From the sequence record NC_054906.1: DNA of 64,000 nucleotides. The stretch is one strand, 5' to 3'. The DNA is from Enterobacteria phage RB18. The translations under genes were made by a program, and so were the position numbers. Below are positions 25,056-43,657 of this stretch, in pieces (position 1 is the stretch's first letter; each line of letters opens with the position of its first letter). The notes beneath the pieces are model-generated. The model was not told the origin of the DNA, searched no databases, and saw only the letters and a list, made by a program, of their open reading frames with translations.

Positions 25056-25244
25056 TTAGTCCTTAGTTAAATTTTCTAAATATGTTTCTAAATCATTTTC
25101 AGCTTTATCGATAGATTTTACTAATTCGTAATATGTTTCGGCATCTCCATAATCAGAAGATAATTCAAAAGACAAATCCTTTTCTAAACTAATAATTTCA
25201 CCAACTAAAAATAATATTTCGTTCTTTTGTTCGCGAGTAATCAT
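25056..25244 (-). CDS. Hypothetical small acidic protein
   Basis: 62-aa ORF. Confidence 0.4.
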   Translation of the reverse strand: MITREQKNEILFLVGEIISLEKDLSFELSSDYGDAETYYELVKSIDKAENDLETYLENLTKD

Positions 25245-25426
25245 AAAGAATTTATATAATCAATGAGTTCTTGTTCTTTATTATCGAATTCTTTAGAAAG
25301 TTCTTCGTACTCGTTTGCACTAAAAGGACCGCATTCATTACAAACTTTTTCCAATTCGCTATTTTTATCCATAACTTCGTGGATAAGAGAAAAGAGTTTG
25401 TCTTTTTGTTCTTTGCTTAGGCTCAT
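25241..25426 (-). CDS. Hypothetical small acidic protein
   Basis: 61-aa ORF; similar composition to its neighbour. Confidence 0.4.
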   Translation of the reverse strand: MSLSKEQKDKLFSLIHEVMDKNSELEKVCNECGPFSANEYEELSKEFDNKEQELIDYINSL

Positions 25427-25596
25427 ATATTAATTTCCAGAAGTTTTAAAATAATTCGCTTTTGCTTAAATATTTCCATAGTTAAATGATCAGTATCTTT
25501 TTGACCAATTCCAATGGCAAAACCTTTATTAGCAGCGAGTTCAATTAAATTATCAAGTTCACGTAACACTTCGTACTGTAACTCATAACTATTCAT
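25423..25596 (-). CDS. Small ORF, 57 aa (not in the track)
   Basis: Hand-translated MNSYELQYEVLRELDNLIELAANKG...; both ends overlap neighbours by ATGA. Confidence 0.35.
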   Translation of the reverse strand: MNSYELQYEVLRELDNLIELAANKGFAIGIGQKDTDHLTMEIFKQKRIILKLLEINI

Positions 25597-25805
25597 TTCG
25601 GTTTACCTTCTTTAACGAAATCTGGATAAGGATAAAATCCCGAATAAAATCCTTCACCTTTATGATTGATGCATCCTTTATTAGAACAATAGCACCAATA
25701 ATCGAAATCACAAGCCATTTCATCGTTGCATAAAGCAAAAACAACCGGCCATTTACACTTTTCACAGTGGGCATTTTTAAGAATACTAGTTTGGCTCATA
25801 ACCAT
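25593..25805 (-). CDS. Cysteine-rich small protein (putative zinc binding)
   Basis: 70 aa with CEKC...C...C...CYC...C. Confidence 0.45.
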   Translation of the reverse strand: MVMSQTSILKNAHCEKCKWPVVFALCNDEMACDFDYWCYCSNKGCINHKGEGFYSGFYPYPDFVKEGKPK

Positions 25806-26023
25806 GTCACCTTTAAGCAGTATTCTTCTACATGCTGTTTACGACCTTTCTTATCAATAAAGGTATATTCAACGAATGTTCCAATGTAGTCTTTATCTAC
25901 ATCATGTGGACTATTAATTGGACATTTAGTACGGCAAATGCGTTCCCATTGACGAATAATTACTGCCTTATTCTTTGGGTCATACGGATGTGGATAATGT
26001 ATATTCATAATAACGGTTCCCAA
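25796..26023 (-). CDS. Hypothetical small protein
   Basis: 75-aa ORF. Confidence 0.45.
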   Translation of the reverse strand: MGTVIMNIHYPHPYDPKNKAVIIRQWERICRTKCPINSPHDVDKDYIGTFVEYTFIDKKGRKQHVEEYCLKVTWL

Positions 26024-26472
26024 TCAACAATCACAATTTCTAATTTAGAGGAATATGTATCTAAAATCCCCTCAATAATATCCCAGTTCCCTTTACCTAT
26101 GCCTGCACCAATCCTAGGCATATAGATTGTAGGTTTAATCAGTTTATTTTCACCAAACTCATTTAATTCTAACATACAATTCATTAAAGCGGAATACTCA
26201 AAATTTGGCCCTGGTTGAAATTGAGTATAAAGGTTGAAGCAATACGCTTTATGAGTCCTAAAGTATTTTTCATAGACTGAGTAAGAACCGAGTTTAGTTA
26301 CATCACCCCATTCAGTCTGTAATTTATCAGCTTCCAAAATTTTAGGGAAAGCTTTGGTTAATTGACCCGCTACGCCTGAACCCATAGTATGAAAACAATT
26401 GCATCCATGCGCAATATTTTTACCTTCAGCGAAAAGGGCGACAATATCGCCCTTGATATATTTTACAATCAT
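26005..26472 (-). CDS. Macrodomain protein (TARG1/DarG-like family)
   Basis: 155 aa; KGDIVALFAEGKNIAHGCNCFHTMGSGVAGQL and MPRIGAGIGKGNWD resemble, from memory, the TARG1/DarG-type macrodomain signature. Confidence 0.6.
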   Translation of the reverse strand: MIVKYIKGDIVALFAEGKNIAHGCNCFHTMGSGVAGQLTKAFPKILEADKLQTEWGDVTKLGSYSVYEKYFRTHKAYCFNLYTQFQPGPNFEYSALMNCMLELNEFGENKLIKPTIYMPRIGAGIGKGNWDIIEGILDTYSSKLEIVIVDWEPLL

Positions 26473-26816
26473 CTAGTACTCAATCCTCGATTATAAGAAT
26501 CTACCAAACGGTCAACCATTGAATGACAAGCGGCTTTATCTTTCTCCTCCGCAACTGAACATTCTAAGGTATTCCACTTTTTAGCATATCGTTTTAATAA
26601 TGTATCGTTTTTGTATCTACTTGATTTATCTCTTTCTCCGTCTTTATATGCATATATTAATTTCTGTGCAAATTCAGCTTGACATGCTTTATTTTTCCCA
26701 CAATAATCTGCCGCAGTGCGGTTTACATATTCTCTAATTTCAGTATATGATGTATCTGCTGATGCAGAAGCAGAAAATGAAATTAATCCTATACATAAAA
26801 CCAAAATTTTAGTCAT
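26469..26816 (-). CDS. Secreted small protein with signal peptide
   Basis: 115 aa; N-terminus MTKILVLCIGLISFSASASA; four Cys in the mature part. Confidence 0.5.
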   Translation of the reverse strand: MTKILVLCIGLISFSASASADTSYTEIREYVNRTAADYCGKNKACQAEFAQKLIYAYKDGERDKSSRYKNDTLLKRYAKKWNTLECSVAEEKDKAACHSMVDRLVDSYNRGLSTR

Positions 26817-27354
26817 TTACTATTTCCAAAAGTTTATTATTTTTAAGGTAATTAGCCTTTTCTAGGACTTCAGAAGCATATTTAGAACCAGCTTTAACAT
26901 TCCATCCCGAATTATAAGAGGATATTGCTTTTCTTATATCGCCCTTATGTATATTTAACCAATAAGAAAGTTCAATGTACGCCCAGGAAGCTGAATTGGA
27001 TCGTTTATTCAACATTCTTTTTATTTCAGCATCGGTCATATTATAACCAAGTTCCTTAACTCTTGCTCGCATAGTAGGCAAATAATTTTGGAACATTCCG
27101 TAGGCGTGATGCTTTGGTTTAGATTTTAAATTAACTCCGCCAGAGCTTTCTTGCCATAAAATAGCAGCCATTATATGACCTAATCCGCTCTTGTGGATAT
27201 TTTTGTGTGTTTTATATTTTCCATCCTTAGAAAATTGTTCCCCGAATTGATACGCGTAACGCATGTTATCGAGTTGGACATTACTGAAAGTATGCTCGGA
27301 GCTATGTGCCATCATTGAAATGGCCAATAGACCAGCGAGTAGTGCTTTTCTCAT
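26809..27354 (-). CDS. Secreted lytic-transglycosylase-like protein
   Basis: 181 aa; signal peptide MRKALLAGLLAISMMAHS; motif ILWQESSGG...AYGMFQ resembles family-1 lytic transglycosylases. Confidence 0.55.
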   Translation of the reverse strand: MRKALLAGLLAISMMAHSSEHTFSNVQLDNMRYAYQFGEQFSKDGKYKTHKNIHKSGLGHIMAAILWQESSGGVNLKSKPKHHAYGMFQNYLPTMRARVKELGYNMTDAEIKRMLNKRSNSASWAYIELSYWLNIHKGDIRKAISSYNSGWNVKAGSKYASEVLEKANYLKNNKLLEIVND

Positions 27355-27823: not shown

Positions 27824-27851
27824 GTTATTCTCCTCTTAACTGATAGAAAAA

Positions 27852-27881
27852 TTATACCACAGTCAAGAGGAAAAGTAAACA
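27852..27881 (-). promoter_or_regulatory. Early promoter of regB (near-consensus)
   Basis: GTTTAC (27876-27881), 18-nt spacer, TGTGGTATAAT (27852-27857). Confidence 0.65.
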
Positions 27882-36190: not shown

Positions 36191-36266
36191 TTGGTCGAGG
36201 CAGTAGGGATCGAACCTACGACCCAGGACTTAGAAGGTCCTTGCTCTTCCTTCTGAGCTATGCCCC
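36191..36266 (-). tRNA. tRNA-Arg (anticodon UCU)
   Basis: 76-nt cloverleaf on the minus strand; anticodon loop CUUCUAA; T-arm GTAGG-TTCGATC-CCTAC; encoded CCA. Confidence 0.8.
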
Positions 36267-36270
36267 GTAA

Positions 36271-36346
36271 TTGGGGTGACCGATGGGAGTCGAACCCATG
36301 ACTACGAGAATCACAATCTCGAGTTCTACCAACTGAACTACGGCCA
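36271..36346 (-). tRNA. tRNA-His (anticodon GUG)
   Basis: 76 nt; anticodon loop UUGUGAU; discriminator C; T-loop TTCGACT. Confidence 0.75.
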
Positions 36347-36460
36347 CATTAATACCTACTCCAACAATCAAGATGTCTTCACACGAAATTAAGAGAAGAG
36401 TGATCAGTTCAACCCTTATAATCGCGTCAAGTAGATATTAATGTGACAGTTGTCACAAAT

Positions 36461-36535
36461 TTGGCGGACGTGATAGGATTCGAACCTATAACCAATCGCT
36501 TAACAGGCGATCGCTCTGCCATTGAGCTACACATC
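36461..36535 (-). tRNA. tRNA-Asn (anticodon GUU)
   Basis: 75 nt; anticodon loop CUGUUAA; T-arm ATAGG-TTCGAAT-CCTAT. Confidence 0.75.
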
Positions 36536-36539
36536 CAAA

Positions 36540-36626
36540 TTGGTGGGGAGTGATGGAGTCGAACCACCCGAGTCGCAATGACAATGGATTTACAGTCCAC
36601 ACCGCTACCTCTACGGGATAACTCCC
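36540..36626 (-). tRNA. tRNA-Tyr (anticodon GUA), long variable arm
   Basis: 87 nt; anticodon loop CUGUAAA; type-II variable arm; acceptor GGGGAGT/ACTCCCC. Confidence 0.7.
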
Positions 36627-36632
36627 CTTAAT

Positions 36633-36707
36633 TTGGTGGCCCTGGGTGGAATTGAACCACCATCTGGCGATTATGAGTCGCTTGCTTGAACCTTCCAGCT
36701 ACAGGGC
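36633..36707 (-). tRNA. tRNA-Ile (anticodon CAU, lysidine type)
   Basis: 75 nt; anticodon arm GCGACTCATAATCGC resembles bacterial tRNA-Ile2; 1 nt from tRNA-Thr (dimeric precursor). Confidence 0.7.
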
Positions 36708-36708
36708 C

Positions 36709-36784
36709 TTGGTGCTGATTGACGGAATCGAACCGCCGACCTTCTCATTACAAGTGAGTTGCTCTACCTATTGAGCTAAATCAG
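36709..36784 (-). tRNA. tRNA-Thr (anticodon UGU)
   Basis: 76 nt; anticodon loop CUUGUAA; T-arm GGCGG-TTCGATT-CCGTC. Confidence 0.8.
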
Positions 36785-36789
36785 CAAAA

Positions 36790-36879
36790 CTGGCGGAGGC
36801 GATAGGATTTGAACCTATGAGTCGCCGGAGCGACTGCCGGTTTTCAAGACCGGTGCATTAAACCACTCTGCCACGCCTC
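36790..36879 (-). tRNA. tRNA-Ser (anticodon UGA), long variable arm
   Basis: 90 nt; anticodon loop CUUGAAA; long variable stem-loop. Confidence 0.8.
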
Positions 36880-36886
36880 CAAATAT

Positions 36887-37537
36887 TTATATATTGTTAA
36901 TTTGATTTAGAATTCTTTTTGCTTGAGTATGACTTACGCCAATATGCTTAGCATATTTAGACAATTCGCCACGTTTAGAAAAATCATATAATTTAGAAAT
37001 TTCTATTCTTCTTTTTCTTTCATCCGCAGAAACTTTTGCTTCGTTCGCTTTTGCTATTTTACGTTTAGCTTCTTGAGAATGAGTTTTACCAGCAAAGCCA
37101 TTCTTCATTAATCCATTTGAAGACCATCCTTTTAATTTTCCGTTAGAATGTGCCTTTTTAACACCCAATGAAATTAATTCGCGCTGCTGATCTGTCATAG
37201 GATAATTATTTATATGGTCCCATCCACCTTCACCTCCAAGTTTTAAATTATACACATCTGGTCTATTTAAAAACTCTTCTGTGACAATATTTTTCTCGGC
37301 TTCAAGCATAGATTCTTTATCGTCAAAATACTCTAATATTTCTTTAGAAAAATTTTCTATACCATATTTATCTTGGGCTCTTTTTAATAATTTACCAGAA
37401 CCCATATATCCATCATCTAAATTTTCGGTAGAATGCACACCAATATAAATTTTATTATTAATTTTATTTGTTATTTTATAAAGATAAAAATGCATATCAG
37501 TCCCTAATAAAGAACTGAGCGTCTCACGACGAGTCAT
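36887..37537 (-). CDS. segB: GIY-YIG homing endonuclease SegB-like
   Basis: GIY-YIG motif FYLYKITNKINNKIYIGVHS; inserted between tRNA-Gly and tRNA-Ser; the true start may be the internal ATG at 37495. Confidence 0.7.
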   Translation of the reverse strand: MTRRETLSSLLGTDMHFYLYKITNKINNKIYIGVHSTENLDDGYMGSGKLLKRAQDKYGIENFSKEILEYFDDKESMLEAEKNIVTEEFLNRPDVYNLKLGGEGGWDHINNYPMTDQQRELISLGVKKAHSNGKLKGWSSNGLMKNGFAGKTHSQEAKRKIAKANEAKVSADERKRRIEISKLYDFSKRGELSKYAKHIGVSHTQAKRILNQINNI

Positions 37538-37541
37538 AAAT

Positions 37542-37615
<74 letters not shown>

Positions 37616-37620
37616 AAATT

Positions 37621-37707
37621 TGGTGCGAGAAGTGGGACTCGAACCCACAAGGAAATCATTCCGCAGCATTTTAAGTGCTGTGCCTTTACCAATTTGACCA
37701 TTCTCGC
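37621..37707 (-). tRNA. tRNA-Leu (anticodon UAA), long variable arm
   Basis: 87 nt; anticodon loop CUUAAAA; type-II variable arm. Confidence 0.8.
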
Positions 37708-37708
37708 G

Positions 37709-37781
37709 CTGGGAATAAAGGACTCGAACCTTTGCATCCTGGAATCAAAATCCAGTGCCTTACCAACTTGGCTAATTCCCA
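37709..37781 (-). tRNA. tRNA-Gln (anticodon UUG); CCA not encoded, abuts tRNA-Leu
   Basis: 73 nt; U1-A72 acceptor TGGGAAT/ATTCCCA; anticodon loop UUUUGAU. Confidence 0.75.
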
Positions 37782-43019: not shown

Positions 43020-43030
43020 TGGATTCTCCT

Positions 43031-43038
43031 TATAAATA
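43031..43038 (+). promoter_or_regulatory. Late promoter (TATAAATA) for gene 53
   Basis: Plus-strand TATAAATA about 30 nt upstream of the gene 53 ATG. Confidence 0.6.
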
Positions 43039-43045
43039 GATAATA

Positions 43046-43053
43046 TATTTATA
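43046..43053 (-). promoter_or_regulatory. Late promoter (TATAAATA) for gene 4, divergent from the gene 53 promoter
   Basis: Minus-strand TATAAATA about 27 nt upstream of the gene 4 ATG. Confidence 0.55.
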
Positions 43054-43066
43054 AACAGGAGGGCCC

Positions 43067-43657
43067 ATGCTCTTTACATTTTTTGATCCGATTGAATATG
43101 CGGCCAAAACGGTGAATAAAAACGCGCCGACTATTCCTATGACAGATATTTTTAGAAACTATAAAGACTATTTTAAACGCGCTCTTGCGGGATACCGCTT
43201 ACGTACTTATTATATTAAAGGTTCACCACGCCCGGAAGAATTAGCAAATACTATATATGGAAATCCACAGTTGTATTGGGTTTTATTGATGTGTAATGAT
43301 AATTATGATCCATATTATGGATGGATTACTTCACAAGAAGCTGCTTATCAAGCATCTATACAAAAATACAAAAATGTAGGTGGAGACCAAATAGTATATC
43401 ATGTGAATGAGAATGGTGAAAAATTTTATAATTTAATATCATACGATGATAATCCATATGTTTGGTATGATAAAGGCGATAAAGCTAGAAAATATCCTCA
43501 ATATGAAGGAGCACTTGCTGCGGTCGATACGTATGAAGCGGCTGTTCTTGAAAATGAAAAACTTCGTCAAATAAAAATAATAGCAAAATCAGACATTAAT
43601 TCATTTATGAACGACCTTATACGTATAATGGAGAAATCTTATGGAAATGATAAGTAA
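43067..43657 (+). CDS. 53: Baseplate wedge protein gp53
   Basis: 196 aa; late promoter at 43031-43038; first gene of the plus-strand baseplate operon. Confidence 0.85.
   Translation: MLFTFFDPIEYAAKTVNKNAPTIPMTDIFRNYKDYFKRALAGYRLRTYYIKGSPRPEELANTIYGNPQLYWVLLMCNDNYDPYYGWITSQEAAYQASIQKYKNVGGDQIVYHVNENGEKFYNLISYDDNPYVWYDKGDKARKYPQYEGALAAVDTYEAAVLENEKLRQIKIIAKSDINSFMNDLIRIMEKSYGNDK

What the first reader, a model, noticed from the sequence alone, without database searches (positions are those of the whole stretch)
26005..26472. Phage macrodomain of the TARG1/DarG type: candidate anti-DarTG factor
The 155-aa protein carries KGDIVA...IAHGCNCFHTMGSGVAGQL and MPRIGAGIGKGNWD, which I recognise as the signature of the TARG1/DarG macrodomain subfamily. 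DarG macrodomains reverse DarT-catalysed ADP-ribosylation of DNA. A phage copy sitting in an early-gene array could neutralise DarTG-type defence or edit phage-induced ADP-ribosylation.
Basis: partly seen in the sequence, partly recalled or inferred. Interest (0 to 1): 0.6.

Follow-up and report, generated by a model that had tools for sequence, protein, structure and literature searches.

The report
T4 anti-DarTG2 macrodomain (Tk.4/AdfM)

Summary
The ORF is real. It lies at window 26005-26472 on the MINUS strand, encodes 155 aa, and contains both quoted motifs. The window is a T4-like phage (Tequatrovirus) and the protein is 100% identical to T4 Tk.4. A bioRxiv preprint (10.1101/2025.11.20.689424) found tk.4 as the only transposon hit on a DarTG2 host, showed that a clean knockout sensitises T4 to DarTG2, and named the gene adfM. 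The anti-DarTG idea is therefore supported, but already published.

What I add is a more precise placement. Fold and sequence searches put the protein in the ALC1/TARG1-like macrodomain class. However, the catalytic Lys of TARG1 (K84) and DarG (K80) is an invariant Gln (Q84) here, and TARG1 D125 is a Gly. Gln is the arrangement in Streptomyces SCO6735, which cleaves thymidine-linked ADP-ribose from DNA and is inactivated by Q85A. Tk.4 has no DarT-binding domain, scores far below the DarG equivalog cut-off, and is only about 19% identical to the Lys-type PhiKZ protein that is also called AdfM. All 80 bacterial relatives examined are stand-alone proteins with the same Gln, and DarT was not among the common families next to them.

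The most likely mechanism is Lys-independent hydrolysis of DarT2-made T-ADPr on phage ssDNA. No biochemical test of the T4 protein was found.

The parts
26005..26472 (-). tk.4 / adfM coding sequence (155 codons plus TGA stop). It is a single macrodomain with no extra domain.
   Evidence: ORF and translation. Pfam Macro covers residues 22-132. The AF2 model is one compact alpha/beta domain with pLDDT 94 and pTM 0.90. 100% identical to T4 Tk.4.
26221..26223 (-). Codon CAA for Gln84, the residue at the position of the catalytic Lys of TARG1 (K84) and DarG (K80) and of the essential Gln85 of SCO6735.
   Evidence: Read from the sequence. Alignments with PDB-verified references. Invariant in 66/66 family members and 80/80 bacterial relatives.
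26398..26409 (-). Codons His22-Gly23-Cys24-Asn25 (HGCN). Asn25 corresponds to DarG N22 and SCO6735 N27. His22 corresponds to SCO6735 H24 and TARG1 H32.
   Evidence: Sequence. Alignment. H22 and N25 are invariant. N27S nearly abolishes SCO6735 activity.
26101..26109 (-). Codons Gly122-Ala123-Gly124, the GxG of the phosphate-binding loop (SCO6735 G126/G128).
   Evidence: Sequence. Alignment. Both Gly are invariant.
26484..26488 (-). GAGGA Shine-Dalgarno-like sequence, 11 nt upstream of the ATG.
   Evidence: Read directly.
26469..26472 (-). ATGA overlap: vs stop codon over the tk.4 start codon (translational coupling).
26005..26008 (-). ATGA overlap: tk.4 stop codon over the tk.3 (DUF7202) start codon.
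27851..27879 (-). Candidate sigma-70 promoter with an extended -10 (TTTACT-17-TG-TATAAT), upstream of regB. It is a possible source of a regB-vs.1-vs-tk.4 transcript. Weak evidence.
   Evidence: Best minus-strand match, but the total count of promoter-like sites equals the chance expectation. No minus-strand terminator-like site and no MotA-box motif lies between it and tk.4.

Best explanation
The gene is the T4 tk.4/adfM orthologue. It is a stand-alone 155-aa macrodomain, expressed from the prereplicative minus-strand gene array and translationally coupled to vs and tk.3. When the host DarT2 toxin ADP-ribosylates thymidines on single-stranded phage DNA and so blocks replication, the protein most likely binds the ADP-ribose in its macrodomain cleft and hydrolyses the N-glycosidic thymine-ribose bond, which restores unmodified DNA. 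The chemistry is most likely of the lysine-independent SCO6735 type. In that scheme Gln84, held in place by Asn25, orients the distal ribose and a water molecule does the work. This differs from the Lys-based mechanism of DarG and TARG1. Shown: the identity, fold class and residue pattern (this work), and the requirement of T4 tk.4 for growth on DarTG2 hosts (preprint). Inferred: that the protein is catalytically active on T-ADPr DNA, and that Gln84 and Asn25 are the key residues.
Against: No enzymatic assay of T4 Tk.4 was found in the searchable literature. The genetic result comes from a preprint. Tk.4 lacks SCO6735 Lys34 (Ser32 here, and Ala, Gly or Ser in nearly all of the family), whose K34E mutant is almost inactive on DNA. 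It also lacks the 5-6-residue longer mobile loop of SCO6735 and Bt_1257. It is therefore not a straightforward SCO6735 copy. I could not inspect model coordinates, so the placement of Q84 in the active site rests on sequence alignment and on the structure-based equivalence published for SCO6735.
Confidence: 0.75

Rival explanations
1. Tk.4 protects mainly by binding and inhibiting DarT2 directly as a stoichiometric antitoxin mimic. Hydrolysis would be dispensable or secondary.
For: Catalytically inactive macrodomains of SCO6735 (Q85A), DarG (K80A) and TARG1 (K84A) all inhibit DarT in vitro, and SCO6735 does so most strongly. The other known anti-DarT factors, AdfA and AdfB, appear to act by binding the toxin.
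Against: Tk.4 lacks the C-terminal DarT-binding domain of DarG. The PADLOC and NCBIfam DarG models are matched only over positions 2-146 of 329-338. The active-site residues Q84, N25, H22 and GxG are invariant over hundreds of phage and bacterial homologues that have no common DarT partner. That pattern suggests selection for catalysis and not for one protein-protein interface.
Confidence: 0.12
2. Tk.4 is a small-molecule ADP-ribose-derivative enzyme, either an ADP-ribose-1''-phosphate phosphatase like yeast Poa1p or an O-acetyl-ADP-ribose deacetylase. This is what the database labels 'phosphatase' and 'O-acetyl-ADP-ribose deacetylase' imply. The DarTG2 phenotype would then be indirect.
Against: Poa1p has Ser where Tk.4 has the invariant Gln84 (alignment). 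The labels are transferred by homology and were not tested. The specific, single-gene DarTG2 phenotype is most simply explained by action on DarT2's product. No 2'-phosphotransferase or sirtuin that would make these substrates lies among the neighbours.
Confidence: 0.05
3. Tk.4 reverses ADP-ribosylation or RNAylation installed by the phage's own transferases (Alt, ModA, ModB), or removes ADP-ribose from RNA bases such as uracil.
For: TARG1, DarG and SCO6735 also cleave uracil-linked ADP-ribose on RNA. T4 encodes three ADP-ribosyltransferases.
Against: According to the review read, Alt modifies MazF at Arg84 and ModA modifies RNA polymerase alpha at Arg265. From my own knowledge, arginine linkages are not typical substrates of the TARG1-like class. 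tk.4 is dispensable on hosts without DarTG2. No transferase gene is adjacent. An RNA activity could exist as a side activity but is untested.
Confidence: 0.05

Closest known systems
T4 Tk.4 = AdfM (anti-DarT factor Macrodomain), bioRxiv 10.1101/2025.11.20.689424
   Same: Identical protein (155/155 aa) at the same genomic position between tk.3 and vs. The published genetics applies directly.
   Different: Nothing at the protein level. The window is not T4 itself: the 1.5-kb region is closest to RB27 (99.3%), and the window's tRNA gene set differs from the eight T4 tRNA genes as I recall them.
Streptomyces coelicolor SCO6735 and Bacteroides Bt_1257 (Gln-type subclass of ALC1-like macrodomains; PDB 5E3B, 2FG1)
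   Different: Only 21-31% identity. Lys34 is replaced by Ser, Ala or Gly. The mobile loop after the Gln is 8 residues here against 14. No biochemistry exists for Tk.4.
DarG (DarG2) antitoxin macrodomain of DarTG2 systems (PDB 5M31, 5M3E, 5M3I)
   Different: Catalytic Lys80 is replaced by Gln84. No C-terminal DarT-binding domain. NCBIfam antitoxin_DarG scores 30.3 bits against a cut-off of 250, and PADLOC DarG scores 36 bits. Not encoded next to a DarT gene.
Chimallivirus AdfM (PhiKZ gp104), Cell Rep 2026, PMC13309987
   Same: A phage-encoded stand-alone macrodomain that counters DarTG2. It was given the same name independently.
   Different: A different lineage. The PhiKZ-like protein keeps the DarG-type N23/K78 site, is 32-36% identical to the DarG macrodomains but only 19-20% identical to Tk.4, and scores 131 bits against 36 bits on the PADLOC DarG model. 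It has direct biochemical evidence and Tk.4 does not.
Human TARG1 (OARD1)
   Same: Top Foldseek hit (E 2.6e-10). Short loop, and His32 equivalent conserved. TARG1 also cleaves T-ADPr DNA.
   Different: The Lys84/Asp125 catalytic dyad is absent (Gln84/Gly126). 23% identity.
Yeast Poa1p (ADP-ribose-1''-phosphate phosphatase, PDB 6LFQ)
   Different: Ser at the Gln84 position. The substrate class is a small molecule and not DNA.

Membership tests
Macrodomain superfamily (Pfam PF01661) | Profile match above the curated threshold, plus the alpha/beta macro fold | tested here: met
ALC1-like / TARG1-like macrodomain class | Closest structural and sequence neighbours are class members (TARG1, DarG, SCO6735/Bt_1257, Poa1p) and not MacroD, viral or PARG types | tested here: met
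T4 Tk.4 / AdfM | Orthology: sequence identity and synteny between tk.3 and vs | tested here: met
   155/155 identical to T4 (X04567.1). RB27 annotation and gene order.
T4 Tk.4 / AdfM | Required for phage growth on DarTG2-expressing hosts | not testable with these tools
   Reported for T4 in a preprint. It applies by sequence identity.
TARG1 | Catalytic dyad Lys84/Asp125 | tested here: not met
   Gln84 and Gly126 occupy the aligned positions. Position 84 is never Lys and position 126 is never Asp in 66 + 80 homologues.
DarG (DarG2) antitoxin | Catalytic Lys80 in the macrodomain | tested here: not met
   Gln84 aligns with K80 of the Taq and Mtb DarG proteins.
DarG (DarG2) antitoxin | Conserved Asn22 | tested here: met
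   Asn25 aligns with N22 and is invariant.
DarG (DarG2) antitoxin | C-terminal DarT-binding domain, and a full-length match to the DarG equivalog model | tested here: not met
   The protein is 155 aa. NCBIfam NF048014 scores 30.3 bits against a cut-off of 250 and is matched at positions 2-146 of 338. PADLOC DarG is matched at positions 2-145 of 329.
DarG (DarG2) antitoxin | Encoded in an operon with DarT | tested here: not met
   Window neighbours are TK, DUF7438, a Zn-binding protein, DUF7202, Vs, an SLT protein and RegB. DarT is not among the top families in 120 ORFs flanking 80 bacterial homologues, nor next to P0098 or P0115.
SCO6735/Bt_1257 subclass | Gln at the catalytic position, positioned by Asn27, plus His24 and Gly126/Gly128 | tested here: met
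   Q84, N25, H22, G122 and G124 are all present and invariant.
SCO6735/Bt_1257 subclass | Extended 'mobile loop' (about 5 residues longer than in TARG1 and DarG) | tested here: not met
   There are 8 residues between Q84 and Y93, against 14 in SCO6735. 42 of 66 family members have 8.
SCO6735/Bt_1257 subclass | DNA-positioning Lys34 | tested here: not met
   Ser32 in Tk.4. The family has Ala, Gly or Ser there, and Lys in only 1 of 80 bacterial relatives.
SCO6735/Bt_1257 subclass | Hydrolysis of thymidine-linked ADP-ribose on ssDNA | not testable with these tools
   Shown for SCO6735. No assay of Tk.4 was found.
Chimallivirus AdfM (PhiKZ gp104) | Orthology and the DarG-type N23/K78 site | tested here: not met
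   19-20% identity (BLASTP E 0.004). The PhiKZ-like protein has FPTK where Tk.4 has LYTQ.
Poa1p-like Appr1p phosphatase | H-x-C-N-C motif and the His23 equivalent; Appr1p phosphatase activity | tested here: inconclusive
   The motif and the His are shared, but Poa1p has Ser at the Q84 position. The activity cannot be tested here.

The most novel reading that the evidence does not exclude
T4 AdfM is not a captured DarG antitoxin. It belongs to a large third branch of TARG1-like macrodomains: Gln-type like SCO6735, but with a short loop and no Lys34. This branch is carried as a stand-alone gene by about 5% of sequenced phages and by many bacteria that have no linked DarT. It would remove thymine-linked (and perhaps uracil-linked) ADP-ribose by a lysine-independent mechanism. 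The name 'AdfM' would then cover two mechanistically distinct, independently recruited phage enzymes.
Probability: 0.55. Interest if true: 0.4.

Novelty: already known. Interest (0 to 1): 0.28.

Why it matters
DarTG systems stop phages by ADP-ribosylating their DNA. Knowing which phage genes undo this explains host range and matters when choosing therapeutic phages. For this gene the main question has already been answered in T4. What remains open is the chemistry. The protein lacks the lysine that DarG and TARG1 use, so Q84A and N25A tests could show whether phages carry two mechanistically different erasers of the same DNA modification. The family is present in about 2,750 phage genomes, so a firm biochemical assignment would also replace a widespread 'phosphatase' or 'hypothetical protein' annotation.

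Tried and rejected
(1) In some searches I trimmed the wrong end of the minus-strand ORF (26005-26469), which dropped Met1. I redid the alignment as A2. All residue numbers in the report use A2.

(2) The ungapped phmmer alignment to Bt_1257 mis-registers the region after strand beta-5: NLYTQ is placed over GIYKD. MAFFT L-INS-i with the family resolves this as NLYTQ over NMIGQ with a loop deletion.

(3) The sigma-70 promoter scan was uninformative (24 sites found, 24 expected). A MotA-box search found no middle promoter near tk.4.

(4) The literature search for 'AdfM' was swamped by a journal DOI string. The T4 genome review PMC150520 is not held, so I could not cite expression timing.

(5) The CmdTAC paper and the ADP-ribosylation review say nothing about Tk.4.

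(6) An apparent association of bacterial homologues with AbiLi-like ATPases ('8 members') did not hold up. Two batches of guessed neighbours gave one strong hit (L012) and one RecD-like neighbour (L006). The rest are probably weak generic ATPase matches.

(7) A perfect 8-bp hairpin inside codons 7-13 of tk.4 (26434-26454) lies in a region whose fold is not significantly more stable than shuffles (z = -1.58).

(8) I could not obtain a DarT sequence or HMM for a direct whole-locus search. The DarT-neighbour test is limited to the nearest flanking ORFs of 600 aa or less and to the top-25 family lists.

Full report
OBSERVATION. The ORF exists at window 26005-26472, but on the minus strand. A GAGGA Shine-Dalgarno lies 11 nt upstream. 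The start overlaps the stop of the upstream gene vs (ATGA, 26472-26469), and the stop overlaps the start of the downstream gene tk.3 (ATGA, 26008-26005). The gene therefore sits in a translationally coupled operon. All ORFs of 150 aa or more between 1.9 and 43.0 kb are on this strand, which fits a T-even prereplicative gene array. The gene is not a chance ORF. It passes the Pfam Macro threshold (27.7 bits against 22), matches PHROG 335 at 1e-65, and has homologues in 2,749 phage records.

IDENTITY. The 1.5 kb around the gene is 99.3% identical to Enterobacteria phage RB27, and 661 Tequatrovirus-type records match it. The protein is 155/155 identical to T4 Tk.4 (X04567.1 'ORF 60.5'). The neighbours are thymidine kinase, two DUF7438 proteins, a phage zinc-binding protein, DUF7202, Vs, an SLT-domain protein and RegB. 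None of them is related to ADP-ribosylation.

WHAT IS ALREADY KNOWN. The HIDEN-SEQ preprint (bioRxiv 10.1101/2025.11.20.689424, November 2025) screened a T4 transposon library on a DarTG2-expressing host and found tk.4 as the single significant hit. The authors showed that a clean knockout sensitises T4 to DarTG2, noted structural similarity to Mtb DarG, and named the gene adfM. They describe enzymatic removal of ADP-ribose from DNA only as 'likely'. This fits earlier work showing that T4 lacking AdfA and the NADAR protein AdfN is still DarTG2-resistant, and that AdfN acts on guanosine-linked but not thymidine-linked ADP-ribose. I found no biochemical study of the T4 protein in the held literature.

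ACTIVE SITE. I recovered the authentic chain sequences of Bt_1257, SCO6735, Taq and Mtb DarG, and TARG1 from the PDB, and aligned them with Tk.4, both with and without its family. In both runs Tk.4 Gln84 falls at TARG1 Lys84, DarG Lys80 and SCO6735 Gln85. Tk.4 Gly126 falls at TARG1 Asp125. Asn25 falls at DarG Asn22 and SCO6735 Asn27. His22 falls at SCO6735 His24 and TARG1 His32. Gly122 and Gly124 fall at SCO6735 Gly126 and Gly128. Gln84, Asn25, His22 and both glycines are invariant in 66 phage and metagenome homologues down to 33% identity, and in 80 bacterial homologues.

The catalytic Lys, and the Lys/Asp dyad, that define the DarG and TARG1 mechanisms are therefore absent. The SCO6735 study (PMC9411070) describes exactly this situation. 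SCO6735 and Bt_1257 lack those residues. Gln85 occupies the Lys position, Q85A abolishes activity and N27S nearly does. The enzyme cleaves T-ADPr DNA faster than DarG or TARG1 and rescues cells from DarT.

Tk.4 is not a plain SCO6735 homologue either. It has Ser32 where SCO6735 has the DNA-positioning Lys34; the Tk.4 family has Ala, Gly or Ser there. Its loop after Gln84 is 8 residues long, as short as in TARG1 and DarG, against 14 in SCO6735. Identity to every reference is only 19-31%.

NOT A DarG, AND NOT THE PhiKZ AdfM. Tk.4 matches the PADLOC DarG model weakly (36 bits) and only over the macrodomain third of the model. It scores 30.3 bits on the NCBIfam antitoxin_DarG equivalog, whose cut-off is 250. 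A 2026 Cell Reports paper independently gave the name AdfM to PhiKZ gp104. That protein is a DarG-like macrodomain with an N23/K78 site, and it was shown in vitro to remove T-ADPr. I fetched a PhiKZ-like copy (phage U5, L005). It has the FPTK lysine motif, is 32-36% identical to the DarG macrodomains but 19-20% identical to Tk.4, and scores 131 bits on the DarG model. DarG-type macrodomains occur in about 291 phage records, mostly jumbo and N4-like phages. The Tk.4 type occurs in about 2,749 records, including T-even, Felix O1-like, KVP40-like and others. The two 'AdfM' proteins are therefore different lineages, probably with different catalytic residues.

ORIGIN. A scan of 185,579 species genomes found at least 525 bacterial relatives. 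The best 80 are 32-43% identical and come from Rhodobacteraceae, Desulfobacter, Verrucomicrobia, Hymenobacter, cyanobacteria and others. They are almost all stand-alone proteins of about 150 aa with the same invariant residues. I scanned 120 flanking ORFs against PADLOC and Pfam. DarT was not among the 25 most frequent families in either library, and the least frequent families listed had 4 and 2 members. Two further bacterial loci also lacked a DarT neighbour. Within those limits, the family does not look like an 'orphaned' DarTG2 antitoxin. It resembles the free-standing SCO6735 type of enzyme.

MECHANISM AND RIVALS. The best-supported reading is enzymatic reversal of DarT2-made thymidine ADP-ribosylation on phage ssDNA, using Gln84 and Asn25 and no lysine (confidence about 0.75 for the role plus hydrolysis). 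The strongest rival is direct inhibition of DarT2 by binding, because catalytically inactive SCO6735, DarG and TARG1 macrodomains do inhibit DarT in vitro. This could contribute. However, conservation of the active site across homologues with no common DarT partner argues for catalysis. The database labels 'phosphatase' and 'O-acetyl-ADP-ribose deacetylase' are homology transfers from Poa1p-like proteins, and Poa1p has Ser at the Gln84 position. Reversal of the phage's own ADP-ribosylation has no support. An RNA (uracil-ADPr) side activity is conceivable, because TARG1, DarG and SCO6735 all have one.

LIMITS. The genetic evidence is from a preprint. I could not inspect model coordinates, so the active-site geometry is inferred from alignments and from the published structure-based equivalence. 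Expression timing could not be cited, because the T4 genome review is not held. The promoter scans were uninformative. The DarT-linkage test covers only the nearest neighbours.

VERDICT. The residual interest lies in the lysine-less active site and in the fact that two unrelated phage macrodomains share the name AdfM. A few point mutants would test both points directly.

Noticed in passing
window 26469-26816 (-) and 26809-27354 (-): Vs (annotated 'valyl-tRNA synthetase modifier', no Pfam hit) and Vs.1 (SLT lytic-transglycosylase domain) both begin with signal-peptide-like N-termini (MTKILVLCIGLISFSASASA and MRKALLAGLLAISMMAHS). An exported location would be odd for a modifier of a cytoplasmic tRNA synthetase. 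The HIDEN-SEQ preprint reports vs as the most depleted T4 gene in minimal medium.
   Followed up: no
window 36192-37781 (-): A cluster of 10 tRNA genes: Arg-TCT, His, Asn, Tyr, Met/CAT, Thr, Ser, Gly, Leu, Gln. From memory, T4 has eight tRNA genes including Pro and Ile, so this relative carries a different tRNA complement even though its Tk.4 is identical to T4's.
   Followed up: no
whole window, mostly minus strand: The MotA-box-like middle-promoter pattern TGCTTNA-N11-13-TANNNT occurs 18 times against 4.5 +/- 2.2 expected, and 15 of the 18 are on the minus strand. None lies on the minus strand between tk.4 and 36.06 kb, so tk.4 is probably read from an upstream early promoter.
   Followed up: partly
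window 25056-25244 and 25241-25426 (-); 25593-25805 (-); 25796-26008 (-): Immediately downstream of tk.4 in the same operon are two tandem DUF7438 paralogues (tk.1 and tk.2), a 'Phage_zn_bind' protein and DUF7202 (tk.3). All are of unknown function. In RB27 the tk.2 CDS is annotated shorter than the ORF seen here.
   Followed up: no
window 26434-26454: A perfect palindromic hairpin (AAGGGCGA-N5-TCGCCCTT) lies inside codons 7-13 of tk.4 (the KGDIVAL motif). In the minimum-free-energy fold the Shine-Dalgarno and AUG are also paired, but the region is not significantly more stable than shuffles (z = -1.58).
   Followed up: yes
L012:881-2152 (Candidatus Halobeggiatoa) and L006:2387-3736 (Bacilli MAG): In these two bacterial loci the Tk.4-like macrodomain gene sits next to a strong AbiLi-like ATPase (3.6e-80) and a RecD-like helicase of defence-system type, respectively. 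These are isolated cases and not a general association.
   Followed up: partly
window about 43020-43070: A sharp strand switch. Every ORF of 150 aa or more is on the minus strand up to 43019 and on the plus strand from 43067 onward. This is presumably the boundary between the prereplicative gene array and the late structural genes.
   Followed up: no
literature: The name AdfM was given independently to two non-orthologous phage proteins: T4 Tk.4 (Gln-type) and PhiKZ gp104 (Lys-type, DarG-like). The Cell Reports paper states that no macrodomain Adf had been reported. This naming collision could mislead annotation transfer.
   Followed up: yes
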